Source: an uncultured Candidatus Saccharibacteria bacterium (GTDB lineage: Bacteria; Patescibacteriota; WWE3; 9FT-COMBO-53-11). Taken from it: DNA of 64,000 bases. Positions 38,055 to 55,087 of this stretch are shown one piece after another (the stretch's first letter is position 1; every line of letters starts with the position of its first letter). The stretch covers positions 21,018 through 85,017 of the forward strand of contig CAYGCK010000001.1 in the NCBI GenBank assembly GCA_964348395.1, written 5' to 3'. The translations under genes were made by a program, and so were the position numbers. A model generated the notes under the pieces. That model saw only the letters and a program-made list of their open reading frames with translations, ran no database searches and was not told the DNA's origin.

Positions 38055-38330
38055 TTACAGGATTCTAAACTTAATCTCCTCCACCGCGCGAGCGGGAAGC
38101 TGCTCGTTTATCACCTTCTTGAGTTCTCTTGCTTTCAAAAAAAGCTCTTGTGAGTGTGTGGGAGAGGGGGAAGCTAAGACGAGTCTGCCGTCTTTGAACG
38201 AGACCATTTCTGCCCACTTTGGAAGTATTCTTTTGCAGATGGCTTCTACCTTAAGAGCCAGAGCGACTCCTCTTATGGGGCTTCTGCGAAGCGACGTGTC
38301 CAGGGTATCTTTGAGCGGCTCGAATGTCAT
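38055..38330 (-). CDS. DUF721 (DciA-like) small protein
   Basis: W-x-E ... DGRLVLASPSPTHSQELFLKARELKKVIN fits the DUF721 pattern; 4-nt overlap with the preceding ATPase ORF. Confidence 0.45.
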   Translation of the reverse strand: MTFEPLKDTLDTSLRRSPIRGVALALKVEAICKRILPKWAEMVSFKDGRLVLASPSPTHSQELFLKARELKKVINEQLPARAVEEIKFRIL

Positions 38331-40359: not shown

Positions 40360-41076
40360 CTATTGGCCTCCTTCGACCGCCGGTTGAACAAACGTAGAGG
40401 TGTAGTTCCCGGCTCCTCCTGCAATATGTTGCACCCTCGCCTGCTCTGGATTATATATCTCGTAGAAAAGTTCGATCAGCTCTGGAGTTGTGAGTTGACG
40501 CGCCTTGATCCCTAAACGCTCCAGCTGTTTTGTGACGTGGTCTCGCTTGGGTTCAAGATCGGTTTTTGCCTGTTCTATGACCTGGGATTTATTGACCCGC
40601 GGCGCTTTGGGTTTTCGGCCAAACAGGAAATCCAAAATTCCCGGTTTTGGCAACGTCACCGCTCCGTAGTAGGGTATGGCGATATAGAACCTCTTGTCCA
40701 AGACTTCACCCTTTTGAACCAAAGACACGATGAACTCCTTGTAGGAGTCTATCCTTTCTCTGAGGTATGGGTTGGCTTGGGAAGCGGTGCCTTGGGCTTG
40801 CTCGTCGACCCACCGCAGGTAGTTTGATATATCAAGCTTTCGCGAGCGAATGACTATCTGTAAAGGGAAAGACAGTGAGTTTAGCATAGAGGAGTAGGCC
40901 GCGATCATCGAATCCTGCTCTTTTTCCGAAAGAAGATCGAAGTTGACAGAGGTCGCCTCCAAGACCAGGGCAGCTCCCCCGTTTTTAAGGATTACCAAAT
41001 CCTCGTGTATGTCGAGGATGTCGAGGTGTTCTTGGGTCGAGGCTTGTTTTGGTGTTTGCGGTTTTCCTAAGGCCAT
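40360..41076 (-). CDS. VirB4 N-terminal-domain-like protein (split from the ATPase ORF)
   Basis: GAALVLEATSVNFDLLSEKEQDSMIAAYSSMLNSLSFPLQIVIRS resembles the N-terminal CagE/TrbE/VirB4 region. TAATG overlap with the upstream gene. Confidence 0.5.
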   Translation of the reverse strand: MALGKPQTPKQASTQEHLDILDIHEDLVILKNGGAALVLEATSVNFDLLSEKEQDSMIAAYSSMLNSLSFPLQIVIRSRKLDISNYLRWVDEQAQGTASQANPYLRERIDSYKEFIVSLVQKGEVLDKRFYIAIPYYGAVTLPKPGILDFLFGRKPKAPRVNKSQVIEQAKTDLEPKRDHVTKQLERLGIKARQLTTPELIELFYEIYNPEQARVQHIAGGAGNYTSTFVQPAVEGGQ

Positions 41077-42530
41077 TATCCTTTGGGTTTGATCTCCAAC
41101 TCCTCTACTTTCTCTCCTGTAAGCTCAAGTTTTATTGTATCAAAGGGTTGGGGAGCCTTCGGTATCTCTAAAGTGTAAGTTCCATTGGGCAAGGAGGCGG
41201 TGGCGAACTTCCCAAGCTCGTTGGTTCGCGTCGCTCGAACCACATTTCCTTTGGCGTCTTTTATTACGACGAGGGTCTGGGACAACACCCCGCCTCCTGA
41301 GTCGTGTACGACTCCCTCTATGGCGTTTGCCTGCTCCCCAGTTTTGGGCGCAGGTTTTTTGTCCACTTTGGGGGCAACCTTTTTTACCGTCGGCAAGGGA
41401 GACGGCGGAGGAGGTGGCGGCGGAGCTGAGGGCTCCTCAACCTTCTCCTCCTTAGCCGGTTCGGGTTTTGGTTGGGGTGGGGGCGGTGGAGGAGCTTTGC
41501 CCTCCTCTTTTATGGTGACCTCCTCGGGAGGTGGAAGCGGTATCTCCTTGGGGGGTGGGGTGGGTGGAGGCTCGGGTTTTGCAGGCGGCGCCTCGGGCGC
41601 CGGCGGAGCCGGCTCGGGCTCCTGTGCTACTGGTTGGATAGGCGTGGGGGGGAGCTGCGGAGCCCCTGGGAGTTCGGGCTCAAGAATTCGTTCCCTCGCC
41701 GGGGCATAGACCGCCTCTCCCGATATAGCAATCGGGGTTAGACGCCTACCGACCCTGACGTTTTTTCGGGTTGTGAAGTAGCTTGCCGCCTCTCCGCGCT
41801 GGACCTTGTAGACCTTCTCTGCTGCCCAGTTTATCGGCGAGGCCAAGGACGGTCTTTTCTGGATTTTCTGTACCTCGATAAAGCGAAGCTCGGGCAAAGT
41901 GGGCGCCGGCGGTGCGGGCTTCTCCTCTGGGAGGAGGGGGGCTTCGGGGGGTTTGACGGCTTCTTTGGGAGGAGCTCCGGGGGTTGGAGGCGGTGTGGGT
42001 AAAGCAGGAGGTGCTTTGGGAGCGGTGATCTGCCGCGCCAAGACATTTATGGACTGAAGATACTGCTTCTCCTCCAGATCCAAAGGGCTAATTTCCCCTT
42101 CCTTCTCGCGGACCGCCTCAAGGTAGGTCTGCAACCGCCGCTCCGCTTCCTCTTTGGAGACTCCGGGCGCCGTCTCGGCGGCGATTTTGGGGATTTCCAG
42201 GGTTAAAAACTCGGGAGGTTCCTTGCTTTGCACCCAGACTCGGCGGGTCGGCGCGTAGACCGCTCTCAAAAACGACATCAACCATTGGTCGAGAGGTTGG
42301 TCTTGAACCGGAACAAAGGCCAGACCGACGCCGATAAGGAGAGCGCCTATTGAGAGAAGTAGCCGTATGGGAAGGAATAACCCAGAGGAAAAAATTGCGA
42401 AAGCTAGGACTCCGGCTATTGCCAGAAAGACAAACTGGCGGATAGTAAAGTCGCCTATGAGCTTGAACTGGACCCCAAAAACCTCCTGCGGGACCGGGTG
42501 TTGTTTTCGTGCTTGCGGTTCTTCGGGCAT
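41076..42530 (-). CDS. VirB3/PrgI-like 2-TM protein with long Pro-rich spacer and C-terminal beta-sandwich (CarboxypepD_reg/Cna-B-like) domain
   Basis: N-terminal FGVQFKLIGDFTIRQFVFLAIAGVLAFAIF plus a second TM; about 250 aa of PxxP repeats; C-terminal GVVHDSGGGVLSQTLVVIKDAKGNVVRATRTNELGKFATASLPNGTYTLEI. Confidence 0.4.
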   Translation of the reverse strand: MPEEPQARKQHPVPQEVFGVQFKLIGDFTIRQFVFLAIAGVLAFAIFSSGLFLPIRLLLSIGALLIGVGLAFVPVQDQPLDQWLMSFLRAVYAPTRRVWVQSKEPPEFLTLEIPKIAAETAPGVSKEEAERRLQTYLEAVREKEGEISPLDLEEKQYLQSINVLARQITAPKAPPALPTPPPTPGAPPKEAVKPPEAPLLPEEKPAPPAPTLPELRFIEVQKIQKRPSLASPINWAAEKVYKVQRGEAASYFTTRKNVRVGRRLTPIAISGEAVYAPARERILEPELPGAPQLPPTPIQPVAQEPEPAPPAPEAPPAKPEPPPTPPPKEIPLPPPEEVTIKEEGKAPPPPPPQPKPEPAKEEKVEEPSAPPPPPPPSPLPTVKKVAPKVDKKPAPKTGEQANAIEGVVHDSGGGVLSQTLVVIKDAKGNVVRATRTNELGKFATASLPNGTYTLEIPKAPQPFDTIKLELTGEKVEELEIKPKG

Positions 42531-43129: not shown

Positions 43130-43177
43130 GCCCTGGGTTTACGTCTTTTTAAGACGAGCCCGGGGCTTACTTTTTGC
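43130..43177 (+). terminator. compound hairpin followed by T-run (terminator between convergent genes)
   Basis: Outer stem GCCCTGGG / CCCGGGGC enclosing CGTCTT-TTT-AAGACG, then TTACTTTTTG. Confidence 0.4.
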
Positions 43178-44408
43178 CGAACATACCCTTAATATCTAGG
43201 GCGTCTTCGACCATTGATGGGGCTTTGAAGGCGGCGGCGATCATTATTAAAGCCAGTACTCCCCCTATAACTCCTTGCGCTCCGAAAACCCCGCCGGCTA
43301 AGTCCCCGTAAGTTCCGCTTATTACGTTTTGTATCCTTTCTGTCGCGCTGGCGGCAGTGCCGACTGCTAACCCTACACCCAGGTAAAGGAAGAACAAGAC
43401 TACCGGGAATACCAAAGTCTTAGCGGTAACGTTTTTAAAGAAGTTTGTTATCGATCCCTCCTGACCGGGTAAAGAGCCAAAGAGGAGAAGTATCGGGGAG
43501 AAAACGGTGTAGATAAGGATGTAGCCGTAAGCTATTAAGACTCTTATGAAGGTCAACCCCAAAAGTACCACGGCCGCGACAGCAAAAATTGCCAGAAGAA
43601 CCAGCGATGAAAGCGCGCTTTGCACCTCGGCCAAACCTTCGAGCCCTCCTAAGAAAACTCCGGTTATCATAGCAGGAGCGGGAGAAAGAGACGCTGCTAT
43701 CGAGCCAGCTCCACCCACAAGGTCAGCGGTTATAGTGCCAAAGGCCTCGGAAATGGCCGTGAGAACTAGATTACTAGTGAAAACCGCGCCGACGTCGATG
43801 ATAAGAGCGATAATAGGGTACGAGAAGGTTATGAGAACCAATCCCAGCAGTATTTTGGGAAGAGCATTGGTGAAAGTTACGACGACTCTGGGAGAAATTT
43901 CCTTTTGCAGGATAATCATAAGGCCGATCACGACCACCACTATCACAAAAAGCCCGTACGCCACGTTTCTCATCCCGCTCCAAACCTCTCGAATGGGGGT
44001 GAGAGCTCCCTGTCCCAAAGTTTCCTGAGCTCTTACTGGGGTATTAAGGAGGTTATCGGCGAGCTCTCCTCGCACGTACTCGCCCAAATCCACAGGCGGA
44101 AAAGTATAGGCCAGTCCCCCCATCCGACCGACAGCCGCCACCAGACCTTGGTCCCAATCCCCACGAACCATCTTATTGATATCCCCGATACTAACCTCGT
44201 CGAAATCTTCCCCAACAGTGGTATAGGAAACGAAGTTCATAGCGGATACGCCGGCGGCGCGGACGGTGCAGTTTATATTAGTAATACACTTAGCTTTTTC
44301 CCACAGGTCGTCAAAAGGCCAAAGGTCAATGGCGTGTGCCGGAGCGGCTTTAAAGCCAAAGAGGGCGAGAGTTATTAAAGGTATCAGGAGAAGTTTAAGC
44401 TTCTTCAC
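43167..44408 (-). CDS. VirB6/TrbL-like polytopic membrane protein with signal peptide and periplasmic N-domain
   Basis: GTG start; signal peptide; about 110-aa exported domain; 6-7 TM helices. Assignment rests on topology and context, not on a motif. Confidence 0.35.
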   Translation of the reverse strand: MKKLKLLLIPLITLALFGFKAAPAHAIDLWPFDDLWEKAKCITNINCTVRAAGVSAMNFVSYTTVGEDFDEVSIGDINKMVRGDWDQGLVAAVGRMGGLAYTFPPVDLGEYVRGELADNLLNTPVRAQETLGQGALTPIREVWSGMRNVAYGLFVIVVVVIGLMIILQKEISPRVVVTFTNALPKILLGLVLITFSYPIIALIIDVGAVFTSNLVLTAISEAFGTITADLVGGAGSIAASLSPAPAMITGVFLGGLEGLAEVQSALSSLVLLAIFAVAAVVLLGLTFIRVLIAYGYILIYTVFSPILLLFGSLPGQEGSITNFFKNVTAKTLVFPVVLFFLYLGVGLAVGTAASATERIQNVISGTYGDLAGGVFGAQGVIGGVLALIMIAAAFKAPSMVEDALDIKGMFGKK

Positions 44409-44481: not shown

Positions 44482-46422
44482 ATGGCGGTTTTCCAGAACA
44501 TCTTTAGCTTCTTTATGCCCGGTAGGCGCCCCGCCTCTCCTGATGGAGGCGGAGGTCCCACGGATCCGGCTGCTATGCAGCGCACGTTGGGCACGATCGA
44601 AGCAACGCTTAGGGAATATGATGTTTCGGAGGGGATAATCGCAAATGTTAGACAAGATTTTATAACGGCTTTTAACGCGGGGACGGCTCCGGTCACTTCT
44701 CTACCTGGTGTGCCCGGCGCAGCGATTTCTAACCTCCGCGTCAATCTTTACAACCTCGCCACTGCCCCGAGTAAGGTCACGGATTCGTGGCAGAAGACTC
44801 TAAGGAATACTCTCAACCAAAACCTTATCACCAGACACTTGGAGGACAAGCTCGTTGTCGAACAGGTATTGGGCGCTCTAGGTGGGGAGCTTGTCGGCGC
44901 CGATATCAGAAACGCCTTTTCCGCTTGGGTTTACCAGACGGATAGCAGATCAGACCGTATAGAGAAAGCAATGGAGATTGGGGAAAAGCTCGAAACCTCC
45001 CTCGATGCAAGAAGATCCGCGCTTCAAGAGCAATTGGAGGCCGAGTTGAGTCGATTATCCGACCCCGCCCATGTGCGCGTTCGCCTCGAGGAACTTAAAA
45101 ATCAAGGGGTAAAGACGATTAATGGAGTAGATGTGGAACAGGCTTATCGTGGAGCTCTTTTTGCCGAGTTAAAACTAAAAGACCATCAAAGCAACTACCA
45201 AAAAGCGCTTAGCGACGCTGCCGCCTTTGAATCTAGAGGAGATACAAAGCGAGCCGCATCGATGCGGGCTAACGCGGAGTTTATCCAAAAAAATTTGAAC
45301 AAGGATTTAGGCCGATGGCAGTCGACGTCCAAAGGCTACAGACAGACCTGGATCGGCGAAGCCGCCTCCTCGATACAGGCTCGAGCAGCTGCTCTTGAAG
45401 CAAGCTACAAACAACTATCCACTTATCTGAGAAACAGGAACATCCGTTATGGCGTTCACAACTTTTTAACAACCCTGCGCAAAGATGGGGTCGGTGGAGT
45501 GTTTCGGGAGTATGCTTGGAAGAGCTTCACAAAGAGATTGGGAAGCCTCTACCCGCCAAACGCTATAAGGGCGTTTCTGAAAAAAACCCCCATACTTAAG
45601 CCTTTGCAGATAGTGAACCAATGGAGAGCTCAGCTGACCTCGTTAGCCCTAAAAGGAATCACGCAGTTAGCTCGGAAACTGGGGTTGGGGAGGATCTTAG
45701 GTGCTGCGCTTGGCTCTGCGCTTCCCGGTGCTGGAACTGCCTTAGGGGCCGTTTTAGGAGCTGTTATTCAGTTCGCTGGAGAAGTGGTTATTGAAAAGCT
45801 GGGCGGGGTGCTTAAACTTGTGGGGTATACAATTGCGGGGGCTATGGGGTGTGTAATGCTCGTTTTGGTAGGGTTTGTGATTCTTGTTTCCATTATCCTA
45901 AGCGACTATTCTGCCGCCGAGGGGATTGACTGTGATCAGACCGCAACCGCCACCGACGCGTGCGTCGCCTCCAAAGCCGCGGTCAAAAACATTGCGGACA
46001 ACTGGGGCGTAGGGCCCGGGAACCACGTGGAGGAGTGCTACAACGACGTAATCGCCAAATCCAAGGAGGTTGGGGTGGACCCTCGAATCTCTATGACGAT
46101 CTGGCTAAACGAAAGTAACGCCTCAAACTACGAGCTTTATAAGCGGTTGGGTGAACCGCCTCAGGATTTTGGTATCCCCGCTCGCGCCGGCGACGGATTC
46201 ACCGCCCAGATAACCACCTTTCTCAACTTCTACAAAAGCAGCCATCAAACTTATGCGTCGTGCTATCAGGGTTACAGCGACGCGGAGGGTTTCTTTAGAG
46301 CGTTTTGTACCGCGGGGCGGGAAGAGTTTGGGGTGGGACAGTGCCCTAACCTCACCGGAGAAGGTGAGGATTGTGTGGATATCTATACGGGGGTTTATAG
46401 TTCGATTAACAGGTGCCAGTAA
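44482..46422 (+). CDS. large coiled-coil membrane protein with Cys-rich extracytoplasmic C-terminal domain (possible SLT-like lytic transglycosylase motif)
   Basis: No signal peptide; about 430 aa helical; 2 TM helices near 440-480. The C-terminus AKSKEVGVDPRISMTIWLNESNAS resembles the SLT catalytic E-S region, weakly. Confidence 0.45.
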   Translation: MAVFQNIFSFFMPGRRPASPDGGGGPTDPAAMQRTLGTIEATLREYDVSEGIIANVRQDFITAFNAGTAPVTSLPGVPGAAISNLRVNLYNLATAPSKVTDSWQKTLRNTLNQNLITRHLEDKLVVEQVLGALGGELVGADIRNAFSAWVYQTDSRSDRIEKAMEIGEKLETSLDARRSALQEQLEAELSRLSDPAHVRVRLEELKNQGVKTINGVDVEQAYRGALFAELKLKDHQSNYQKALSDAAAFESRGDTKRAASMRANAEFIQKNLNKDLGRWQSTSKGYRQTWIGEAASSIQARAAALEASYKQLSTYLRNRNIRYGVHNFLTTLRKDGVGGVFREYAWKSFTKRLGSLYPPNAIRAFLKKTPILKPLQIVNQWRAQLTSLALKGITQLARKLGLGRILGAALGSALPGAGTALGAVLGAVIQFAGEVVIEKLGGVLKLVGYTIAGAMGCVMLVLVGFVILVSIILSDYSAAEGIDCDQTATATDACVASKAAVKNIADNWGVGPGNHVEECYNDVIAKSKEVGVDPRISMTIWLNESNASNYELYKRLGEPPQDFGIPARAGDGFTAQITTFLNFYKSSHQTYASCYQGYSDAEGFFRAFCTAGREEFGVGQCPNLTGEGEDCVDIYTGVYSSINRCQ

Positions 46423-46425: not shown

Positions 46426-47112
46426 TCAGTCGATCAAAAAATAGTAGCTGTATTCGTTTAAGTCAACTCCGATTGCTTCCAAATCCCCAAGAGCTCTGTT
46501 TTTAGCCGCTTCTACCTCCGCTCCCAGAGCGTTTTCTCCAAGAGTTAGGCGGATTCGGAATGCCTCTTTTTCAAAGTTGTAGACGATAACATACTCGTTG
46601 GTTTCTATAGGGATGCTCGCGTACCAAGGATAGGTTTTATAGAAATCTTTTTCGGCCTCGGCGACCAAGAAGTCGTCCGCCGCCTGCTGTCGGGCTTCCT
46701 CTTCTATTTGTTCCTTGGCTTTGTCCGTCGTTTTAAAAGAAAATGAATAGATCTCCTTCTGCTTGTAAAGGACGGCTACGGTGTAGGTTGTTGCGCTCTC
46801 CAATCCCTGGTCGATGGTTACCTGGAGGGTATTTGCGGAACTCCAGGTGGCGGAGGAGTCCGTCTCTGGATTGATTACCACAGCGACGTCGCTTTGGACG
46901 GCCCCATCCAACTCTTCTTGGAACGTTATCTCCAACGGGAGAATACCGAGTACCCCTTCTTCGTTGTCCTGGGGAATTGTTGAGGCGACAGCTGGCATAA
47001 GCTCGGGCTCTCTTATTAACAAGATCCCTACGATGAGCATAGCAATCAAACCCACTATCAAAATAATTGCGGTTATGGTTATAGTCCTTGGGGAGATATC
47101 TTCTAATTTCAT
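46426..47112 (-). CDS. N-terminally anchored hypothetical protein, last gene of the pilin operon
   Basis: ATGA overlap with the CHAP gene; single TM. Confidence 0.45.
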   Translation of the reverse strand: MKLEDISPRTITITAIILIVGLIAMLIVGILLIREPELMPAVASTIPQDNEEGVLGILPLEITFQEELDGAVQSDVAVVINPETDSSATWSSANTLQVTIDQGLESATTYTVAVLYKQKEIYSFSFKTTDKAKEQIEEEARQQAADDFLVAEAEKDFYKTYPWYASIPIETNEYVIVYNFEKEAFRIRLTLGENALGAEVEAAKNRALGDLEAIGVDLNEYSYYFLID

Positions 47113-48995
47113 GGTCTGCCAAAACCCTCAATCTTAAAGCCGCCGGCACTTTGGATTCGACCGTCGTCTCCAACGGGCAAGACCAACGATTTTGTAGCCG
47201 CGTTTGAGTGAACTATTCTGATAGCATCCTGCGTGACGCTATAGACTATACCGACGTGGTTTATACGCCACGAGGTAGCGTTTGAGACTCTAAAGAAGAC
47301 TGCGTAACCCGGCTGAAGATTGTGCCAGGTGGCGTCTCTTGCGGCGATGAACCTCCCACCGCTGGAGTAGGTTTCGGTGCCCCCCGAGGCAGTAACGATG
47401 GCCCCAAACGATTTTGCCATTTCGTTAGAGAGAAGACTGTAGCTTTTGCCGTGGGTGGTGTTAACCAAACGCGTACACCAAAACATGTTTATAAATTTAT
47501 CCGGCGGGTATGGGGGGTTGGGGTTTCTTGCGTATTCGGCCTCGTCAAAGTATTGGGGGTAGTCATCCTTACTCCAGTTCCAGAGACACCAAAATCCCTG
47601 GTAGAGATTGTTTACGATTTCCCAAGCCCGCCCGGCGATTCCTCCCATGGTATTGGGGAACTCCAGTGGGGTAGCCTCGTCGGTGCATACAATCGGAAAT
47701 CCGGCGAAGGGCCCAAACGCCGCTTCGCACGCCCCGACAGCCGCGTTTGCCGGGTGGGCGGTGAGTTGGTCGTAGATGCAGGAAGTGGCGCTTCCTACGT
47801 TTCCAAGGTCCGCGATGTGAAGGTTTGAACTATCGTTATATGTGGCTTTGCCCTCGCTGTGCGGATCGTAGACGTAGTTTAGGAGGGGTTTGGCCTGTTC
47901 GGTCATAAAGAACTTCCCTGGAGGAAGAAGAACATTGAGCACGCCACCACCACCGGCGGTGGTGCTCGGGGCGCCTATCCTCTCCCACGCGTCGCTGGCG
48001 TAGGATACTTCTGTCTGCGTGTCGAGATTTCCTCCAATTTCGTAATTGAATTCCCCCGCGCTGTCGGGGCAATCTGTAATGTTGCCGTCCTCATCGGTTT
48101 CGCAGGGTAGCCTCTCCTCCTCTGCATCCTCCTCCGGAACTGGTTGATACGCCGTCCAGGGAGCAACTCTGTGGGGATTGGCGTCCGCGAAACCTACTGT
48201 CGGTGTAACCACGATGGTGCTGGGGTCGTAGGCGGAGCAATCTTTGTCTAGATCCGGTATGTCCGCAACCTCTTGGGTAAAGGGAACTAGAGCTTGTTTC
48301 AAGAGCCCAAAACGGTCATAAAGGGGAGAGACCTCGCCAAATCTCCCTTGGACGTCGTAGTTTGCGACGGCTTCCTCTTCCGCTCCTAGTTGGAGGTCGT
48401 AGTATCCTAGCCGGTTGGGGTCAAAGCCGGTGTCTTCATAAACCGCGCTGGGGATTGTGGTAGTGAAACCCTTTTGAAGGGCTCGGTTGTTGAGGATTAT
48501 GGTTCCCGTGACCAGCTGGCCCTCCGACTTGGTGAGTTCCTCGAGCGGGTCGCGGTCGTCCTGTCTGTAGTTAGGAGCTAGAACGCGGGCTATGGAACCA
48601 TTAAGTTCCCCAGGCTCGTCGGATGTGGGGTCCCCCGATAGAGCGAGTCGGTTGGCTCGCCTAAGGTATGGGGGCATTTGGGAGTCTTGGAGGTTGAGGT
48701 TCCCTGGACCGGTGTAGTCGGCGAAGAGTTTGGCGAGAACACAAGTGACGAAACCGATTAAGCCGCCTTGAGAGCACGCCTTGTTAATAACATCGTCTTC
48801 CTTAAGCTCGTTGGGGTTGGTAGCTACGTCGGAAGGTGATAGGCTCCCACTCTTAAACTGTGGACAAACCGTAGTTGCCGCGGTGACTTGAGGGGCAGAG
48901 CCAAGAATTAAGAACAGAAGAACAGTAAGCAGGACTAGGGGTTTTCTTGGGATATTCATCAAGAAAATCTTATCAGAAATATCTTGAAACCCCAT
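47109..48995 (-). CDS. secreted cell-wall hydrolase with C-terminal CHAP-like domain
   Basis: Signal peptide; C-terminal NMFWCTRLVNTTHG ... GYAVFF ... HVGIVYSV gives a Cys/His arrangement like CHAP amidase/peptidase. Confidence 0.55.
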   Translation of the reverse strand: MGFQDISDKIFLMNIPRKPLVLLTVLLFLILGSAPQVTAATTVCPQFKSGSLSPSDVATNPNELKEDDVINKACSQGGLIGFVTCVLAKLFADYTGPGNLNLQDSQMPPYLRRANRLALSGDPTSDEPGELNGSIARVLAPNYRQDDRDPLEELTKSEGQLVTGTIILNNRALQKGFTTTIPSAVYEDTGFDPNRLGYYDLQLGAEEEAVANYDVQGRFGEVSPLYDRFGLLKQALVPFTQEVADIPDLDKDCSAYDPSTIVVTPTVGFADANPHRVAPWTAYQPVPEEDAEEERLPCETDEDGNITDCPDSAGEFNYEIGGNLDTQTEVSYASDAWERIGAPSTTAGGGGVLNVLLPPGKFFMTEQAKPLLNYVYDPHSEGKATYNDSSNLHIADLGNVGSATSCIYDQLTAHPANAAVGACEAAFGPFAGFPIVCTDEATPLEFPNTMGGIAGRAWEIVNNLYQGFWCLWNWSKDDYPQYFDEAEYARNPNPPYPPDKFINMFWCTRLVNTTHGKSYSLLSNEMAKSFGAIVTASGGTETYSSGGRFIAARDATWHNLQPGYAVFFRVSNATSWRINHVGIVYSVTQDAIRIVHSNAATKSLVLPVGDDGRIQSAGGFKIEGFGRP

Positions 48996-49010
48996 TGGAA
49001 AGAAATTTAT

Positions 49011-49379
49011 CTAGCGGGCGATGGATGTCAGGACCAGATTTACGATAAATATGGCCGCAATAATAAGAACGAGTCCAAGAATTGAGTAGGTGATGGTTGC
49101 TTTGGCGGTCGAGAGAGATTTTTCGTCACCTCCGGACATCATGTATTGGATTCCACCGTAGATGAGAAACAGTACCGCCACTGTTCCGGCAAGACCGAGA
49201 AGGACATCCACAATTCGCGCGATTATGCAAAATATGCCAGATATCTCTTCGGTTGAGCACGCGGTGAGGGATATTCCAAGGTAATCCTCTATAAAGTCAA
49301 AGGCACTAGCCGCAAAAACCGGCTGAGCCAGACCTAATGAGGCAATCGCTGCTGCAGATGAGCTCAATATTATTTTCAT
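49011..49379 (-). CDS. VirB2/TrbC-like pilin paralog 1
   Basis: SD AAGGAGG 7 nt upstream of ATG 49379. Signal peptide, then two hydrophobic helices separated by IYGGIQYMMSGGDEKS. Confidence 0.55.
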   Translation of the reverse strand: MKIILSSSAAAIASLGLAQPVFAASAFDFIEDYLGISLTACSTEEISGIFCIIARIVDVLLGLAGTVAVLFLIYGGIQYMMSGGDEKSLSTAKATITYSILGLVLIIAAIFIVNLVLTSIAR

Positions 49380-49442
49380 CGTTATCCTCCTTTCAACGTT
49401 AAACACTTTAAGACCAAGCGCTGGGGCAATCCTTACCTAAAT

Positions 49443-49796
49443 CTAGACTGCACAGGCCGGTATATTTGGTGTGATTGTACGTAAGACAACGTTGACGATC
49501 AACCAGGCCCCAAGAACAATTACAAGCCCGATAACCGCGCTAGTAATTCGGCCTCGTGCCTGCTCAACCCCAATCTTATCTCCGCCGGAGGTCATGTACT
49601 GGATACCACCCATAATGAGAATAATGACGGCGATTGTTCCGGCTATTCCGAAAAGGATGTTAGTGATAGCGGAAGCAGCGTCGCAGATGGAATCCCACCG
49701 CAACGGGTTTTTCCCTGCCTGCGCGAGAACCGGTGTAGCTGACAACGCTAACGCACTGATTGTTGCTGCTGTCGTTTTGACTTTGTTTCTAAGCAC
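49443..49796 (-). CDS. VirB2/TrbC-like pilin paralog 2
   Basis: GTG start with GGAGGTGA SD; signal peptide; IMGGIQYMTSGGDKIG between two hydrophobic helices. Confidence 0.55.
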   Translation of the reverse strand: MLRNKVKTTAATISALALSATPVLAQAGKNPLRWDSICDAASAITNILFGIAGTIAVIILIMGGIQYMTSGGDKIGVEQARGRITSAVIGLVIVLGAWLIVNVVLRTITPNIPACAV

Positions 49797-49811
49797 TTAT
49801 TTCACCTCCTC

Positions 49812-50429
49812 TCAAAACGGAAAGATGTCCGGACTAATACCTATAATCCTAATTCCGATTATATGGAGTATTACAGTGGATATCAAGAGAAATACTAAGC
49901 CGGATATTGCGGCCGTGATTTGGGCTCTTGCCTTTTGGAGTTTGTCCGGGTCACCCGTGGATGTTGCAACCCCGTACCCACCGACGACGATTAAAAGGAT
50001 GGAAAGTAAGGTTCCTATACCGATACCAACCCTAAGAAGCACGGTGGCTAGAGCCGTGGGGTTGGTGGGGAGCGTGATGAATCCTATGTCGATCTCGTCC
50101 TTGCCCTCTGGTAATTTGATTTCCACTTCCCCGGCCTCTTCTCCCTCTACATTGTTGGTTGGAGTCGTTTCCGGCTCTGGAGTCGGGGTGGGCGTTGGTG
50201 TTCCATCGTCGCAGGTGTAAGTTCCTGATGCGCAGGTGGATGGGGATCTGGGTAAACATGGGTTGGGAGAGGGAGTGCAGGTGCTGGGCTGAACATCACA
50301 ATAATTATCCGCGCGTAACTGACAGTTGTAGGTCGCCGCGTAAGTTGTGGATAGTGAGGAGGCCGATAATCCAAGGAAAGTTAAGGTTATGAGCAAACCG
50401 AAAAATATCTGGGCAAGTGATTTCTTCAT
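49812..50429 (-). CDS. VirB2/TrbC-like pilin paralog 3 with Cys-rich / PT-rich N-terminal extension
   Basis: Signal peptide MKKSLAQIFFGLLITLTFLGL; Cys-rich segment and TPTPTPTPEPETTPT linker. C-terminal LLSILLIVVGGYGVATSTGDPDK ... hydrophobic pair. The upstream part of the ORF-track ORF is rejected because it overlaps the divergent gene. Confidence 0.5.
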   Translation of the reverse strand: MKKSLAQIFFGLLITLTFLGLSASSLSTTYAATYNCQLRADNYCDVQPSTCTPSPNPCLPRSPSTCASGTYTCDDGTPTPTPTPEPETTPTNNVEGEEAGEVEIKLPEGKDEIDIGFITLPTNPTALATVLLRVGIGIGTLLSILLIVVGGYGVATSTGDPDKLQKARAQITAAISGLVFLLISTVILHIIGIRIIGISPDIFPF

Positions 50430-50508
50430 TCTCAAGCTGATAATAGCAGAACTCACGGGAAATACGCTAGAGGATAAAGCGGCCGGCCCCTTGCTACAAT
50501 ATAAAGGT
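50430..50508. promoter_or_regulatory. divergent promoter region; extended -10 (TGCTACAAT at 50492-50500) places the transcription start at or next to ATG 50509 (leaderless)
   Basis: TGn-TACAAT ends 8 nt before the plus-strand ATG. A minus-strand TATTAT lies 10 nt before pilin-3 ATG, with no SD. Confidence 0.3.
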
Positions 50509-52323
50509 ATGGTTCCAAAACTGCCCCAAGTTCGCAAACTCACTGTTTTTGGTTTAGTTCTCGCTCTCCTTGGCGTAGTAATAAGCTTCCAACTTACCTC
50601 GGCGGATGAGCTCGACGACGTAACCAACGAGCTTTCCCAGCAGCAACAACAGCTTTCCGATCTTGAAGAAAGAAAAGAACAGCTGGCGCGGGATATCTCC
50701 TCGGCCTCTGCATCTTTATCCCAGGTTTCTGCCGAGCTTTCACAAGCAGAAGAAGAGTTATCGGCGATAGAAAGTGAGCTCGCCAAGCGTGAGGCGACTC
50801 TAAAGCAGTGGGAGGAAGACCGCAACTTCCTTATAAGAGTCCTCTACAAACAAAGCCGCGTATCCCCTGTCGAGGTGGTTTTTTCCTCCGACAATCTGGT
50901 TGAATCGACCAAAAACCTACAGTACTACGATGACAACCTAGATCTTCTTAAAGACCGGATAGGATTACTGGTCGACGAGATAGGGGTTTTCCAAGCCAAC
51001 AAAGCCACCGCCCGGCAGTTGCGTGATGATCTTGCCGCTCTTAGGGATCAATATCAATACCGTCTTGCTTCAAGCCAGCGCCAGTTTTCTTCAACTTCCT
51101 CGCAATTAGCTTCCGTCAAGTCTTCGATCCAAAACCTAACCGCGCAGCAGGAACAGTTGATACTGGCAAAGTTTGCTGCTGGTGGCGGGAGTGAGACGGT
51201 TGGGGATAGCCCACCTCTATCCGAGCAATTACCTGACCCATCGTTCTCCCCCGCTTATATGGTGGCCGCCTACGGGTATCCCCATCGAATTGGGATGAGC
51301 CAGTACGGGGCCTATGGTCGAGCGAAGAAAAACCAAGATTATAAATCAATTCTGGCTGCTTATTACAAAGTTTCTGCCTCAAGTATCCAGACTTACCGGG
51401 TTGGAGGAACTATCCACGTAAAGGGTTGTAGCGTAGGCCCACCGCCTTGGTACCCCGGAGGAGGAGGTTGGAGTCAGAGTACTTGTCAAAGCAAAGGGTA
51501 TAAGTGGTACGACGCCACTTTAAGCATGGAAACATATATTAAGGGTCTTGGAGAAATGCCACTAAGTTGGGGAAGCGCTGCGATGGAGGCATATAAAGCC
51601 CAGGCGGTTGCTGGACGTAGTTATGCCTGGGCCTATGCGGATGGAAATGGAGGGACTATTTGCCCATCAACTTACTGTCAGGTCTATTTGGGTTATAACA
51701 AAGGGAGTTACTGGGAACAGGCCGTGAACGCTACACCGAACCAAGTGATTGTACAGGGCGGAGCCCCACTTAAGGCGTTCTATCACTCCACCGCCGGTGG
51801 TTACACCATCTCTACGCAGCAATGGACTAGCTACTGGAACTACATCGATGGCATTAAAGACTTTCACTCCGACGGACAAGCATACGAGCAGGTCGCTAGT
51901 GCTCCTTGGTACCACACTGGATGGGGTTCTCGTACCGGTAGTGGTTATAATCCTTGGATGACGCAGGAAGAGTTTGCCGATATCTTCAATGCAATTCTGC
52001 TTTGTCGCAAGTCGAACACCCAGCCCTACGAACTCGCTTCCGACTGTCCGTATATGCAATACCTCTCTCCGATAGACAAAGGCGGTTGGGATATGCCCAC
52101 AGTTCGAAACAACGTTTCGGGTGTTACTCCGATAACGTCTATCTCGGCGGTTGTTCCCACATTTCCATCAGGAGTCCCGGCCAACACCTCGACTGTCCTC
52201 GTTTATGGGTCACATGGAACTTACGCCTTTAGCGCCCGTTACTTTAGGGATATGTTCAATTTACGCTCCCGCGGGACTCTCCAAATTCCTACCTACCGCT
52301 TCGATTTCACTGTTAAGCAGTAG
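50509..52323 (+). CDS. SpoIID/LytB-family lytic transglycosylase with N-terminal signal anchor and long coiled coil
   Basis: ETYIKGLGEMPLSWGSAAMEAYKAQAVAGRSYA ... TYCQVYLGY ... FYHSTAGGYT match the SpoIID domain. N-terminal about 230 aa is coiled coil with a QQQQ stretch. Confidence 0.75.
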   Translation: MVPKLPQVRKLTVFGLVLALLGVVISFQLTSADELDDVTNELSQQQQQLSDLEERKEQLARDISSASASLSQVSAELSQAEEELSAIESELAKREATLKQWEEDRNFLIRVLYKQSRVSPVEVVFSSDNLVESTKNLQYYDDNLDLLKDRIGLLVDEIGVFQANKATARQLRDDLAALRDQYQYRLASSQRQFSSTSSQLASVKSSIQNLTAQQEQLILAKFAAGGGSETVGDSPPLSEQLPDPSFSPAYMVAAYGYPHRIGMSQYGAYGRAKKNQDYKSILAAYYKVSASSIQTYRVGGTIHVKGCSVGPPPWYPGGGGWSQSTCQSKGYKWYDATLSMETYIKGLGEMPLSWGSAAMEAYKAQAVAGRSYAWAYADGNGGTICPSTYCQVYLGYNKGSYWEQAVNATPNQVIVQGGAPLKAFYHSTAGGYTISTQQWTSYWNYIDGIKDFHSDGQAYEQVASAPWYHTGWGSRTGSGYNPWMTQEEFADIFNAILLCRKSNTQPYELASDCPYMQYLSPIDKGGWDMPTVRNNVSGVTPITSISAVVPTFPSGVPANTSTVLVYGSHGTYAFSARYFRDMFNLRSRGTLQIPTYRFDFTVKQ

Positions 52324-52346
52324 GTTATTCTGCTATCATAATCCTG

Positions 52347-54341
52347 ATGCCTCAGGAGTTAGAGGTTAAAGTCTCCAAACTAGAAGGCTCCCCTGCCGCC
52401 GAGCGCGGAAAGACTGTTCAGGTTTTCGAGTTCATCCCCCCTCAAGGAGAGGATTTTCCGGAAGAACGAGGACAACTTTTTGCCGTTGTGGAGGTGAATT
52501 TGCCCACCGAGCGGCAAGAGGTGGATTTGACCGAGGACGCGGCTTTGGCCGCCAAACTCGTTTGGGATACCCTAGTCGGAACCTATTATGATCCATCGGA
52601 AGAAACAGCGCTAAAGGCGCTGGAGGATGCAACCGAAACCGCCCGCGAGAAGCTTAAAGATTTCGCCGAGGATAGCGACCTTAACCTCATAGCTGTCGCC
52701 ATTTTAGGAAACGTCGCTTATTTCTCCCGCGTCGGCGGCGGCGCACTTTATCTTAGGCGAGGCGCGGAGGTTAGAGATTTAGCTCAAGAGGAGGAAGCCG
52801 TCGATATCGGTTCCGAGATTTTAGAGGGAGACGATGTTTTAGCCGTGGGGTCCCCGGTTTTTGGCAAAAACTTCACCGCCGCCAACCTCCCTCAAACGGA
52901 ATTTCTGGTTAAACAATTCGAGCAAGGGGTTAAGGTCCCGGGTTTTTCCGCTCTCCTTTTAATGCTCAAACCCTCAAGGGAATCACGCGAGGAGGCGGTA
53001 AAAAATGGGGTATCCCGCTCCCCACTCGCAAAGATTTTCAAAAGAGCAAAGAAACTGCCCGCGGATCTGCCTAAAGTTAAGCTCGGCGCCTTGTCCCCGT
53101 CAAAACTAGGTAAAGGGGTTTCGCGCTTCTTGAGCGACCGCGTTTCTCGAGGCAAAAAGCTAGCGGAGGCGAGAAAGGCGGCGCCTGAGGAGAGAGAGGG
53201 CGGGGAAGAGCTTAAGGCGCTCAAACCGCCTAAGCTTAAAAAGCTTCCCCGGCTGCCATTGTCGCGAATCATTGCCGTTTTGGTGATTCTTCTTGTCGTT
53301 TCCATCGGGTTCACCGTATGGAGGCAAGCGCAAAAAGCCAAGGCGGAGGAGTTTGAACGCATCATCACCGAAACCACGCAAAGTTTGGACGAGGCGGCAG
53401 GTCTGGTGGGGTTGTCAAACGAGCGGGCGCTTGAGCTCGTCGAAGAAGCGCGTGCCGATTTGGAGCGGGCGAGGGATATAGACCCCCGCTCTGGCGAGAT
53501 AGACCCCTTGTTGTCGCGCGCCGAGGAACTCTACAACGCCATAGAGAAAATTACTCCGGTTGGGGAGGAGCATATAGTATACGATTTGGGACTCCAGGTC
53601 GAGGGGGCTCAGGGTGTAGCCATCTCCGGTTCTGGAACCACACTTTATGTTGCAGATTCAACAAGCGGATCGGTATTTTCGATTGTTATCCCTTCGGGGG
53701 AGGGGGAGCTTCCGCAGGTTTCGGCTATCGCAGAGGGAACTATACAAGGTATCCGCGAGATCGGCTCCGAAGGCGGATTCTTATATCTACTTTCCGAAGA
53801 TAAACTCTACCGGTTTAACTTGTCGACCAAGGCGGTCGACGAGCCCGTACCTTTCGAGCGCTATAGCCTCTCCGTCTCCTTGGATACATACTCTGGGAAC
53901 GTCTATCTTTTAGTTCCCGAGGAGGATCAGATCTACAAGTTCTGGAATCTCGAGACGGGATATTCTAAGGCGGTTTCTTGGGTTAAGGCGGTCGTGGACT
54001 TGGGGTACTTTACGGATATGGCGGTGGATGGGGATATCTGGCTCTCCGCCTCCGGTGGAGAGATTATGCGTCTGACCAAGGGTGAGGGCACCGCTTTCGC
54101 GATTTCCAATCTGTCGACACCTTTTTCTAGTGTGAACAAAATATTTACCCGCCCCAATCTAATCCGCCTTTACATTCTTGACACAGGAAACCAGAGGGTC
54201 GTGGTTTTGGACAAAGGAGGGAATTTTGTCCGGCAGGTCAAGGGCGACGGATTGGAGGGAGCTACAGACCTTTGGGTTTCGGAGGACGAGAAAACACTCT
54301 ACATACTCGTAGGTAGCAAGATTTACCGCATAGGTTTGTAG
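52347..54341 (+). CDS. membrane-anchored protein with C-terminal beta-propeller-like repeats
   Basis: Central TM (IIAVLVILLVVSIGF). C-terminal repeated LYV/LYI ... D motifs suggest NHL/YVTN-like blades. The N-domain is unassigned. Confidence 0.45.
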   Translation: MPQELEVKVSKLEGSPAAERGKTVQVFEFIPPQGEDFPEERGQLFAVVEVNLPTERQEVDLTEDAALAAKLVWDTLVGTYYDPSEETALKALEDATETAREKLKDFAEDSDLNLIAVAILGNVAYFSRVGGGALYLRRGAEVRDLAQEEEAVDIGSEILEGDDVLAVGSPVFGKNFTAANLPQTEFLVKQFEQGVKVPGFSALLLMLKPSRESREEAVKNGVSRSPLAKIFKRAKKLPADLPKVKLGALSPSKLGKGVSRFLSDRVSRGKKLAEARKAAPEEREGGEELKALKPPKLKKLPRLPLSRIIAVLVILLVVSIGFTVWRQAQKAKAEEFERIITETTQSLDEAAGLVGLSNERALELVEEARADLERARDIDPRSGEIDPLLSRAEELYNAIEKITPVGEEHIVYDLGLQVEGAQGVAISGSGTTLYVADSTSGSVFSIVIPSGEGELPQVSAIAEGTIQGIREIGSEGGFLYLLSEDKLYRFNLSTKAVDEPVPFERYSLSVSLDTYSGNVYLLVPEEDQIYKFWNLETGYSKAVSWVKAVVDLGYFTDMAVDGDIWLSASGGEIMRLTKGEGTAFAISNLSTPFSSVNKIFTRPNLIRLYILDTGNQRVVVLDKGGNFVRQVKGDGLEGATDLWVSEDEKTLYILVGSKIYRIGL

Positions 54342-54414
54342 CACACTACTAAACCCGATCTGACTACCTGCTAACTATACTATTATACTTTCCGTTGGTT
54401 AGTGGATCTAGTAA

Positions 54415-54506
54415 TGGCGGAGGGTGTGGGATTCGAACCCACGCGGCGGCTGTTAACCACCAACGGTTTAGCAAACCGTCGCCTTAAACCACTCGGCCAA
54501 CCCTCC
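54415..54506 (-). tRNA. tRNA-Ser (GCT)
   Basis: Reverse complement folds as a type II tRNA: acceptor GGAGGGT, anticodon loop TTGCTAA, long variable arm, T-arm GTGGG-TTCGAAT-CCCAC, CCA. Confidence 0.85.
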
Positions 54507-54557
54507 GTACCCTTTATTTTACCAGCAGGGCGCTTGCTTTTTGCTAAACTACCCTTG

Positions 54558-55055: not shown

Positions 55056-55087
55056 GTTTTCCGTTCTCGGGTTATAATTAAATGTTA

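What the first reader, a model, noticed from the sequence alone, without database searches (positions are those of the whole stretch)
49011..50429. Three tandem divergent VirB2/TrbC-like pilin paralogs sharing a GG-x-QYM-x-SGGD loop motif
All three have a signal peptide and two hydrophobic helices. Paralogs 1 and 2 share an almost identical loop (IYGGIQYMMSGGDEKS versus IMGGIQYMTSGGDKIG). Paralog 3 instead reads VVGGYGVATSTGDPDK, and carries a Cys-rich segment plus a TPTPTP linker ahead of the pilin core. Two major pilins plus one decorated variant suggest a heteropolymeric or tip-differentiated filament.
Basis: partly seen in the sequence, partly recalled or inferred. Interest (0 to 1): 0.7.

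Follow-up and report, generated by a model that had tools for sequence, protein, structure and literature searches.

The report
Three-gene T4SS pilin array, CPR bacterium
These are three small VirB2-like pilin genes from the chromosomal type IV secretion locus of an ultrasmall (Patescibacteria/CPR) bacterium; such pilin arrays are already published, so this is a further example, with some unreported details about how conserved each copy is.

Summary
Three adjacent minus-strand genes (P3 49812-50429, P2 49443-49796, P1 49011-49379) each encode a signal-peptide-like N-terminus, two hydrophobic helices and a short polar loop. They are the only such ORFs in the 64 kb window.

- **Family:** P1 and P2 pass Pfam's threshold for PF18895 (T4SS_pilin). 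P2 also passes for PF04956 (TrbC/VirB2). P3 is below threshold, but its profile matches the P2 profile at 98.6% probability.
- **Context:** they sit about 9 kb from a monoderm-type T4SS set (PrgI, split VirB4, a candidate VirB6-like protein) near dnaA.
- **Prior work:** tandem arrays of 2-11 divergent VirB2-like pilins in Patescibacteria T4SS loci are published (PMC12102498). They are essential in one cultured species (PMC10633639). This is a new member of a known kind.
- **The loop motif:** GGxQYMxSGGD is a signature of the whole family, not a special link between P1 and P2.

Details I did not find reported:
- The three genes are ancient positional orthologues with a fixed order, next to SpoIID.
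- The first gene carries a hypervariable head with an even number of cysteines.
- The P2 type keeps or loses its N- and C-terminal cysteines together.
- Fused multi-pilin chains exist.

A heteropolymeric or tip-differentiated filament is plausible but unproven.

The parts
49812..50429 (-). P3, the first gene of the array. It is a 205-aa decorated pilin: signal-like N-terminus, a 6-Cys segment (C36-C73), a TPTPTPTPEPETTPT/acidic linker, then the pilin hairpin with loop GGYGVATSTGDPDK.
   Evidence: ORF and sequence. PF18895 20.3 bits, below the 26.6 cut-off. hhalign to the P2-type profile 98.6%, E 5e-16. AF2 helices 124-156 and 161-196 at pLDDT about 80; Cys region below 55. Orthologues occupy the first position in 8 related loci.
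49443..49796 (-). P2, the middle gene. It is a 117-aa pilin and the most conserved of the three, with loop GGIQYMTSGGDKIGVEQARGRIT. Cys38 follows the signal peptide and Cys115 is near the C-terminus.
   Evidence: PF18895 46.2 bits and PF04956 43.7 bits, both above cut-off. 32 homologues at 36-100% identity. AF2 hairpin 37-69 / 74-111, mean pLDDT 72. Identical to NCBI protein GTO10_01980.
49011..49379 (-). P1, the last gene. It is a 122-aa pilin with loop GGIQYMMSGGDEKS and a conserved C-x9-C (ACSTEEISGIFC) before helix 1.
   Evidence: PF18895 40.6 bits, above cut-off; PF04956 22.4 bits, below. AGGAGG lies 6 nt before the ATG at 49379. Orthologues occupy the last position in related loci.
50430..50508 (.). 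Short divergent intergenic region between P3 and the SpoIID gene. It is the presumed shared promoter region.
   Evidence: P3 starts at 50429. The SpoIID start is placed at 50509 (MVPKLPQV...) by comparison with the L001 orthologue. No promoter was demonstrated. No inverted repeats were found in 48900-50700.
50509..52323 (+). SpoIID-domain peptidoglycan-remodelling protein with an N-terminal coiled coil, transcribed divergently from the array.
   Evidence: PF08486 49 bits. It is adjacent to the first pilin gene in 15 of the related loci.
52347..54341 (+). Conserved 664-aa membrane protein of unknown function that accompanies SpoIID.
   Evidence: Only sub-threshold Pfam hits. It co-occurs with SpoIID and the array in L001, L003-L005, L007, L009, L011-L013 and L017, and lies upstream of the array without a detected SpoIID in L006 and L008.
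47109..48995 (-). 628-aa secreted protein with a weak CHAP-like C-terminus, 15 nt downstream of P1. It is a candidate cell-wall hydrolase in the same operon.
   Evidence: CHAP 18.8 bits, below the cut-off of 26. It follows the array in L002-L007.
46426..47112 (-). 228-aa membrane-anchored Ig-like (Big_5) protein. Its start overlaps the stop of the CHAP-like gene.
   Evidence: PF13205 35.6 bits. Syntenic in L002, L003 and L006.
44482..46422 (+). Conserved 646-aa protein of unknown function between the pilin operon and the VirB6-like gene.
   Evidence: No Pfam or NCBIfam hit. Syntenic in L002-L004, L006 and L017.
43167..44408 (-). 413-aa polytopic membrane protein, a candidate VirB6/PrgH-like channel subunit judged by position and topology only.
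   Evidence: No family hit. Translation shows many hydrophobic segments. Conserved downstream of pilin arrays in 13 of the related loci.
41076..42530 (-). PrgI-family (VirB3-like) protein with a long proline-rich extension and a CarboxypepD_reg domain.
   Evidence: PF12666 39.4 bits; PF13620 35.7 bits.
40360..41076 (-). TrsD-like protein, corresponding to the N-terminal part of VirB4 encoded as a separate gene.
   Evidence: NCBIfam TrsD E 1e-9 and the N-terminal region of VirB4_plasma E 6e-10, both below cut-off.
38327..40357 (-). VirB4-like T4SS ATPase of the monoderm CD1110 family.
   Evidence: NF045971 391 bits against a cut-off of 325. PF19044 TraG P-loop 95.6 bits.

Best explanation
P3, P2 and P1 are the pilin module of the chromosomal, origin-proximal type IV secretion system that is typical of Patescibacteria.

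**Shown here**
- All three belong to the PF18895/VirB2-like pilin superfamily.
- They form one tight operon with a CHAP-like protein and an Ig-like protein.
- They are linked to PrgI, a split VirB4 and a candidate VirB6-like polytopic protein (assigned by position and topology only).
- Each of the three is a distinct, separately conserved orthologue whose order (decorated type, P2 type, P1 type) is kept across related genomes.

**Inferred**
- Each protein is exported by Sec, and its signal peptide is cut after VFA, AQA or TYA.
- The mature protein sits in the membrane as an N-out/C-out helical hairpin, with the conserved GGxxYMxSGGD-K/R loop on the cytoplasmic side.
- The VirB4 ATPase and the VirB6-like platform then extract the subunits and stack them into one surface structure, a pilus or a short conduit through the wall. 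As in F and T pili, the loop would line the lumen and both termini would face outward.
- SpoIID and the CHAP-like enzyme open the peptidoglycan locally.
- P2 type and P1 type build the body. P3 type is a low-copy or terminal subunit whose hypervariable, disulfide-bonded head is displayed outward, probably for contact with the host cell.

**Confidence by step**
- Identity as T4SS pilins: about 0.9.
- Non-redundant roles for the three: about 0.6.
- Co-assembly into one heteropolymeric or tip-differentiated structure: about 0.4.
For: **Family membership**
- Pfam scores above threshold for P1 and P2.
- hhalign 98.6% probability between the P3-type and P2-type profiles.
- Only these three ORFs in the window hit the pilin HMM.

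**T4SS context**
- VirB4 CD1110 family scores 391 bits. TrsD-like and PrgI genes are present.
- The same block (SpoIID + p664, then the pilin array, then CHAP, Big_5, p646, B6-like, PrgI, TrsD, VirB4) recurs, in whole or in the part each contig covers, in L001-L008, L010 and L017.

**Positional orthology**
- Genes at the same position in different genomes share 58-69% identity over the 75-aa core.
- Genes at different positions within one genome share 30-44%.
- In 8-gene arrays of other lineages, the gene next to SpoIID scores best as P3 type and the last gene as P1 type.

**Disulfide-rich outward-facing head**
- In the 149 best P3-like representatives the region before the core has quartiles of 101, 155 and 239 aa.
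- 125 of the 144 proteins that contain cysteine have an even count (binomial p = 2.6e-20).

**Structure**
- AF2 predicts a hairpin for P2 and P3.

**Co-assembly hints**
- Single chains carry 2-6 pilin hairpins, including P0162 with the order P3 type, P2 type, P1 type.
- P3 has a weak ribosome-binding site (GAGA), whereas P2 and P1 have GGAGG.

**Literature**
- Pilin arrays are described in 383 Patescibacteria assemblies, near dnaA and without a relaxase (PMC12102498).
- The pilin series is essential in S. epibionticum (PMC10633639).
Against: - No filament built by a Patescibacteria T4SS has been observed in the papers I could search. The only CPR pilus structure found is an unrelated Ig-fold system.
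- P3 fails Pfam's own threshold.
- The candidate VirB6 has no family hit.
- Signal-peptide cleavage, topology, stoichiometry and co-assembly are all inferred.
- The fused chains could include gene-calling artefacts, since some CPR lineages recode UGA.
- The coupled cysteine loss in the P2 type is a single evolutionary event.
Confidence: 0.55

Rival explanations
1. The three pilins are interchangeable alternative major subunits. The array exists to vary the surface of the filament for different host strains or to evade host defences. This is the reading offered in the literature, by analogy with Bartonella and Anaplasma VirB2 paralogs.
For: - PMC12102498 proposes this for Patescibacteria arrays.
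- Array size varies from 2 to 8 among the loci fetched here.
- The N-terminal head of the P3 type is hypervariable.
Against: - Each position is a separately conserved orthologue, at 58-69% identity between genomes against 30-44% within a genome, and the order is fixed.
- All three sit in one operon with their own ribosome-binding sites.
- There are no inverted repeats or other switch elements. P1 and P2 DNA are only 73% alike over their best 79 nt, so there is no recent gene conversion.
- All pilins of the S. epibionticum series are reported as essential.
Confidence: 0.15
2. The proteins are T4SS components but do not form an extended pilus. They make a short membrane- and wall-spanning conduit or stalk, or stay as a membrane pool that gates the VirB6-like channel.
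For: - Monoderm MPF-FATA systems, to which this VirB4 belongs, are not known to make pili (PMC12102498 and PMC12857230).
- The three proteins give weak NCBIfam hits to the Mycoplasma ICE 'pilin-like conjugal transfer protein' family.
- Peptidoglycan enzymes flank the array, which fits a wall-spanning structure.
Against: - A large, hypervariable, disulfide-rich head on the first pilin is hard to explain for a buried component.
- Nothing here separates a short conduit from a long filament.
Confidence: 0.25
3. They are unrelated small membrane proteins, for example holin-like partners of the neighbouring cell-wall hydrolases, and only resemble pilins through hydrophobic composition.
For: - They are small two-helix proteins next to SpoIID and a CHAP-like enzyme.
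- Fold search is non-specific.
- There are no BLAST-level matches to plasmid pilins and no sequence matches to solved VirB2 structures.
Against: - Pfam scores are above curated thresholds for two pilin families.
- The polar loop motif is conserved, not only the hydrophobic stretches.
- Signal-peptide-like N-termini are present.
- Synteny with PrgI, VirB4 and the VirB6-like gene is conserved.
Confidence: 0.03

Closest known systems
VirB2-like pilin arrays of Patescibacteria T4SS (Quinonero-Coronel et al. 2025, PMC12102498; essential pilin series SEML1_0006-0019 region of Ca. Southlakia epibionticum, Wang et al. 2023, PMC10633639)
   Same: - Tandem PF18895/PF04956 genes with low identity within the array. 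Here it is 31-51%; the published mean is 25% and maximum 54%.
- Linked to a monoderm-type VirB4, TrsD, PrgI and a VirB6-like gene.
- Close to dnaA/dnaN.
- No relaxase or coupling protein nearby.
   Different: - Nothing fundamental differs; this is a three-gene array in a WWE3-like genome.
- I did not find the following in those papers: the fixed order of three deep orthogroups, the conserved SpoIID/p664 neighbours, the even-numbered Cys-rich hypervariable head of the first gene, and the paired N/C cysteines of the second.
TrbC/VirB2 conjugative pilins of Gram-negative T4SS (Pfam PF04956; T-pilus, RP4, F-family and H-pilus subunits)
   Same: - Signal peptide plus a two-helix hairpin with a short basic loop.
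- P2 passes the Pfam threshold.
- Genetic linkage to VirB3-like, VirB4-like and candidate VirB6-like genes.
   Different: - The host is a monoderm, so there is no outer-membrane core (VirB7/9/10) and no VirB5 tip protein.
- There is no VirD4 or relaxase in the window.
- There is no evidence for head-to-tail cyclisation or a TraF-type peptidase.
- The relationship is visible only with profiles.
- Canonical systems use a single pilin, whereas this locus has three obligate paralogs.
Mbov_0395 / ICE_MMCAP2_0565 pilin-like conjugal transfer proteins of Mycoplasma ICEs (NCBIfam NF045849)
   Same: It is the only NCBIfam model hit by all three proteins. It is an 80-aa two-helix protein of a monoderm MPF-FATA-type system.
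   Different: Scores are 16-30 bits against a cut-off of 40, so these are not members. The Mycoplasma proteins occur as single copies in a mobile element.
Amplified VirB2 paralogs of Bartonella, Anaplasma and Rickettsia T4SS
   Same: Several divergent virB2 copies sit beside one T4SS.
   Different: Those are thought to serve antigenic or host-range variation in a diderm pathogen. Here each copy is conserved as its own orthologue.

Membership tests
Pfam PF18895 T4SS_pilin | Whole-protein score at or above the gathering cut-off of 26.6 bits | tested here: met
   P1 scores 40.6 bits and P2 scores 46.2 bits. P3 scores 20.3 bits, which on its own does not meet the cut-off. P3 is placed in the family by hhalign (98.6%) and by orthologues that carry a precomputed PF18895 hit (P0001).
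Pfam PF04956 TrbC/VirB2 pilin | Whole-protein score at or above the gathering cut-off of 27.9 bits | tested here: inconclusive
   P2 scores 43.7 bits (met). P1 scores 22.4 bits (not met). P3 has no hit. Only P2 is a formal member. The others are related through P2.
VirB2-type conjugative pilin (functional class) | Cleavable signal peptide followed by two hydrophobic helices joined by a short polar loop | tested here: met
   Hydropathy and loop positions. AF2 hairpins. Pro22 and Ala25 at the putative cleavage site are nearly invariant in 32 P2 homologues. Cleavage itself is inferred.
VirB2-type conjugative pilin (functional class) | Encoded with VirB3-, VirB4- and VirB6-type genes | tested here: met
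   PrgI and VirB4 (CD1110 family) are above cut-off, with a TrsD-like gene. The VirB6 assignment rests on position and topology only. Synteny is seen in L002-L004, L006, L010 and L017.
VirB2-type conjugative pilin (functional class) | Polymerises into an extracellular, lipid-containing helical filament | not testable with these tools
   No multimer prediction or experiment was available. No such filament is reported for Patescibacteria in the papers searched.
Cyclic pilins (TrbC of RP4, VirB2 of Ti, TrhA of R27) | Head-to-tail peptide bond made after C-terminal trimming | not testable with these tools
   No cyclase or TraF-type peptidase was looked for beyond the Pfam scans of neighbours. P2 instead has Cys38 and Cys115, which are present together or absent together in 32 homologues. 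A disulfide tie between them is a hypothesis only.
Patescibacteria VirB2-like pilin array (PMC12102498) | Two or more PF18895/PF04956 genes in tandem, or separated by one gene, with low mutual identity | tested here: met
   Three genes are separated by gaps of 15 and 63 nt. Pairwise identity is 31-51%.
Patescibacteria VirB2-like pilin array (PMC12102498) | Chromosomal, near virB4 and often near dnaA, without a relaxase or coupling protein | tested here: met
   virB4 lies about 9 kb away, with dnaA at 33321-34733 and dnaN at 36831-37922. No relaxase or T4CP family was found among 28 ORFs scanned with Pfam or NCBIfam. Smaller ORFs and sequence outside the window were not scanned.

The most novel reading that the evidence does not exclude
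The array encodes an obligate hetero-oligomeric T4SS appendage with a division of labour that predates the split between WWE3-like and Woesebacteria-like lineages.
- The first gene supplies a terminal or sparse subunit. Its hypervariable, disulfide-knotted head determines which host cell is recognised, making it a functional stand-in for the missing VirB5 or adhesin.
- The P2 type is the main shaft subunit. Its N- and C-termini are tied by a disulfide (Cys38-Cys115), a redox-based equivalent of the head-to-tail cyclisation of T, RP4 and H pilins.
- The P1 type has a third fixed role.
- Fused multi-hairpin chains in other CPR genomes would then be covalent versions of the same neighbour contacts.
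Probability: 0.25. Interest if true: 0.65.

Novelty: new member of a known kind. Interest (0 to 1): 0.35.

Why it matters
- The T4SS and its pilin series are essential for the epibiotic growth of the one genetically tractable Patescibacterium. Its function is described as completely unknown (PMC11665869).
- This window adds no new kind of system.
- The comparative pattern is still useful. Three deep orthogroups in a fixed order, a variable cysteine-rich head on the first, and conserved cell-wall enzymes alongside argue that the paralogs are non-redundant parts of one machine. They argue against interchangeable variants.
- That narrows the experiments worth doing in cultured Saccharibacteria: per-gene depletion, filament proteomics and disulfide mapping.
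- It also points to the first gene's head as a candidate determinant of host range.

Tried and rejected
- **Foldseek against PDB with the P2 model.** Nothing scored below E 1.5. A conjugation-pilus chain (8dfu, Aeropyrum) appears at rank 8 but is not significant.
- **Profile search of solved-structure sequences with the P2 alignment.** No hit below E 0.5.
- **tblastn of P2 against 72,556 plasmids.** One marginal hit (E 9e-3) in unannotated Priestia DNA. There is no BLAST-level link to plasmid pilins.
- **Word-indexed homologue search with P3.** It found only 2 proteins. The exhaustive HMMER search was needed and found 5513 representatives.
- **Search for a phase-variation or gene-conversion mechanism.** There are no inverted repeats in 48900-50700. 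The only direct repeat is the homologous helix-1/loop coding stretch of P1 and P2, at 73% identity.
- **Cysteine co-occurrence in the P2 type as a statistical test.** The association is perfect in 32 sequences. The Cys-less sequences form one clade, however, so it reflects one coupled loss and is only suggestive.
- **AF2 on P3.** The Cys-rich head and linker are low confidence (pLDDT 41-55), so no fold can be assigned to the head.
- **'A Novel Pilus System in CPR' (bioRxiv 2026).** It was checked as a possible description of these filaments. It concerns unrelated Ig-fold donor-strand pilins.
- **The 249-aa plus-strand ORF at 49471-50220.** It is antisense to P2 and P3 and is treated as a shadow ORF.
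Full report
**1. What is in the sequence**

The interval 49011-50429 holds three minus-strand genes. From the DNA I place them as follows.
- P3: 49812-50429, 205 aa, ATG start with only a weak GAGA upstream.
- P2: 49443-49796, 117 aa, GTG start 6 nt after GAGGAGGTG, 15 nt after the P3 stop.
- P1: 49011-49379, 122 aa, ATG start 6 nt after AGGAGG. The GTG at 49406 listed by the ORF finder is less likely.

Fifteen nucleotides after P1 comes a 628-aa gene. Its stop overlaps the start of a 228-aa gene. The array therefore heads a five-gene operon.

Each protein has two long hydrophobic segments around a short polar loop. Each also has an N-terminal K/R-plus-hydrophobic stretch ending in small-x-small sites: VFA|A, AQA|G and TYA|A. 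Cleavage is inferred, because no signal-peptide predictor was available.

**2. Is it more than chance?**

Yes.
- BLASTP gives 51% identity and E 9e-22 for P1-P2, 34% and E 6e-9 for P2-P3, and 31% and E 1e-6 for P1-P3.
- An HMM built from 32 P2 homologues hits only these three among 720 six-frame ORFs of the window. The next best hit has E 2.3.

**3. Family**

- Pfam places P1 (40.6 bits) and P2 (46.2 bits) in PF18895 T4SS_pilin, whose cut-off is 26.6.
- P2 also falls in PF04956 TrbC/VirB2 (43.7 bits against 27.9).
- P1 is below threshold for TrbC (22.4 bits). P3 is below threshold for PF18895 (20.3 bits).
- A profile of P3 orthologues aligns to the P2 profile over 72 columns with 98.6% probability and E 5e-16. 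P3 is therefore a divergent member.
- NCBIfam gives only sub-threshold hits, to the Mycoplasma ICE 'pilin-like conjugal transfer protein' model.
- AlphaFold2 predicts a helical hairpin for P2 (helices 37-69 and 74-111, mean pLDDT 72).
- It also predicts a hairpin for P3 (helices 124-156 and 161-196, pLDDT about 80). The P3 Cys-rich head and linker are at low confidence.
- Fold searches are uninformative for such a simple fold. Sequence searches against solved structures and against plasmids found nothing significant. The link to classical VirB2 therefore rests on the Pfam profile.

**4. Surroundings**

On the same strand, 7-11 kb away, lie:
- a PrgI-family (VirB3-like) gene;
- a TrsD-like gene;
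- a VirB4 ATPase of the monoderm CD1110 family (391 bits against a cut-off of 325);
- a 413-aa polytopic protein with no family hit, which I take as a VirB6 candidate by position.

dnaA, yidC and dnaN lie just beyond. The cumulative GC skew turns at about 28-30 kb.

A SpoIID-domain protein is transcribed divergently from P3. The CHAP-like and Big_5 proteins follow P1.

No relaxase or coupling-protein family was found among the 28 window ORFs scanned against Pfam or NCBIfam.

P2 is identical to an NCBI protein from a MAG labelled 'Candidatus Saccharibacteria bacterium'. The closest loci in species-representative genomes are mostly labelled candidate division WWE3.

**5. What is already known**

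- Quinonero-Coronel et al. 2025 (PMC12102498) scanned 3,035 Patescibacteria genomes with exactly these two Pfam models.
- They reported 441 arrays of 2-11 VirB2-like genes in 383 assemblies. Mean identity within an array was 25% and the maximum 54%.
- The T4SS is of monoderm type, often next to dnaA, and usually lacks a relaxase.
- Wang et al. 2023 (PMC10633639) showed that the pilin series in the T4SS cluster of Ca. Southlakia epibionticum is essential.

The finding is therefore a further example of a published class. The published interpretation of the diversity is adaptation to different host strains.

**6. What the comparison adds**

A related JGI contig (L001) and 26 loci from species-representative genomes were fetched. 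They were scanned with the pilin HMM and with the window's neighbouring proteins.

*Conserved block and order.* Eight loci (L001-L008) have the same block: p664 and SpoIID on one strand, then the decorated pilin, the P2 type and the P1 type on the other. Where the contig continues, these are followed by CHAP-like, Big_5, p646, the VirB6 candidate, PrgI and TrsD genes; VirB4 itself is reached only in L010. Woesebacteria-like loci (L009-L013, L017) have seven or eight pilins (L013 is cut short by the contig end) in the same frame.

*Positional orthology.* Over the 75-aa core, genes at the same position in different genomes are 58-69% identical on average. Different positions within one genome are 30-44% identical. 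In the longer arrays, the gene next to SpoIID scores best as P3 type. The last gene scores best as P1 type wherever the array end lies within the contig. The three genes are thus old, separately maintained orthologues in a fixed order. This argues for distinct roles rather than interchangeable variants. There is also no inverted repeat or sign of recent gene conversion.

*The loop motif.* It recurs throughout all of these pilins, so it is the family signature.

**7. The decorated first gene**

- An exhaustive search with P3 found 5513 cluster representatives at E up to 1e-3.
- Among the best 149, the stretch before the pilin core has quartiles of 101, 155 and 239 aa.
- That stretch is cysteine-rich and cannot be aligned beyond two cysteines and a juxtamembrane IP-TDP-like motif.
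- 125 of the 144 cysteine-containing proteins have an even count (binomial p = 2.6e-20). This is the expected pattern for a disulfide-bonded extracellular domain.
- With an N-out/C-out hairpin, this head would point away from the cell and, in a VirB2-type filament, away from the lumen.

**8. Cysteines in P2 and P1**

- In 32 P2-type proteins, a cysteine just after the signal peptide and one near the C-terminus are either both present or both absent. All totals are even.
- The Cys-less proteins form a single clade, so this is one coupled loss and only suggestive.
- A disulfide joining the two termini would mimic the cyclisation of T, RP4 and H pilins. That is a hypothesis.
- P1-type proteins keep a C-x9-C before helix 1.

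**9. Fused chains**

Sixteen of the 149 representatives carry 2-6 pilin hairpins in one polypeptide. P0162 has the order P3 type, P2 type, P1 type, and P0063 has six hairpins. If these are real, neighbouring genes make neighbouring subunits. Gene-calling artefacts were not excluded.

**10. Mechanism and verdict**

- **Most likely mechanism.** The three proteins are Sec-exported hairpin pilins. The VirB4/VirB6-type machine assembles them into one surface structure, helped through the wall by SpoIID and the CHAP-like enzyme. P2 and P1 types form the body, and the P3 type carries a variable disulfide-rich head.
- **Confidence.** Identity is about 0.9. Non-redundant roles are about 0.6. Co-assembly into a heteropolymeric or tip-differentiated structure is about 0.4.
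- **Rivals.** A short conduit rather than a pilus (0.25), interchangeable variants (0.15), and unrelated membrane proteins (0.03).
- **Novelty and interest.** This is a new member of a known kind. Interest is 0.35, because the class is published but its function remains an open and testable question.

Noticed in passing
window 50509-54341 (+); also L001, L003-L005, L007, L009-L013, L017, L019, L020: A SpoIID-domain protein sits directly beside the first pilin gene in 15 of the related loci (13 divergent; upstream on the same strand in L019 and L020). It is usually accompanied by a conserved 664-aa membrane protein of unknown function. The Patescibacteria T4SS survey does not mention SpoIID and states that most genomes with VirB2 lack VirB1.
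   Followed up: partly
P0063, P0162, P0053, P0055, P0104, P0177 and 10 others: Some polypeptides contain 2-6 pilin hairpins joined by 10-25-aa linkers. Several begin with a P3-type core followed by P2-type or P1-type cores. They could be genuine fusions, which would be a Rosetta-stone hint of co-assembly. They could also be read-through artefacts.
   Followed up: partly
window 49443-49796 (-), residues Cys38 and Cys115; alignment A2: In P2-type pilins the N-terminal and C-terminal cysteines are present together or absent together in all 32 homologues. The Cys-less proteins form one clade. The pair could be a disulfide tie of the two termini.
   Followed up: partly
window 38327-41076 (-): VirB4 is split. 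A 238-aa TrsD-like protein matches the N-terminal part of Mycoplasma VirB4, and it immediately precedes the 676-aa ATPase gene.
   Followed up: no
window 41076-42530 (-): The PrgI (VirB3-like) protein is unusually long at 484 aa. It has a roughly 250-aa proline-rich stretch and a C-terminal carboxypeptidase-regulatory-like (Ig-type) domain.
   Followed up: no
window 47109-48995 (-) and 44482-46422 (+): Two large proteins are syntenic with the array and have no confident family. The 628-aa one has a sub-threshold CHAP hit (18.8 bits). The 646-aa one has a cysteine-rich C-terminal part. Either could be the wall-opening enzyme of the system.
   Followed up: partly
L005 7795-9829: In one related genome a DnaJ-domain gene and a second gene on the opposite strand are inserted between the decorated pilin and the P2-type gene. 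In L001 a similar DnaJ-domain gene follows the array in place of the CHAP-like gene.
   Followed up: no
window 54415-56372: There is a cluster of six tRNA genes (four Ser, two Arg). Two listed ORFs (54402-55055 and 55504-56373) start inside tRNA genes, so their N-termini are probably spurious.
   Followed up: no
window 58169-62051 (-): Four adjacent genes look by eye like a cytoplasmic [NiFe]-hydrogenase set. The large subunit has RICGVCP and DPCITCSVH motifs. The other genes appear to encode a small subunit, an FAD/NAD-binding subunit and an Fe-S subunit. None was checked with a family search.
   Followed up: no
window as a whole; The source MAG is labelled 'Candidatus Saccharibacteria bacterium' at NCBI. 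The nearest loci in species-representative genomes are mostly labelled candidate division WWE3 or Patescibacteria group. Several related CPR MAGs are labelled 'uncultured Gammaproteobacteria' or 'Pseudomonadales', which are evidently mislabels.
   Followed up: no
window 49471-50220 (+): A 249-aa ORF lies antisense to P2 and P3. It has no support and is treated as a shadow ORF of the pilin genes.
   Followed up: no
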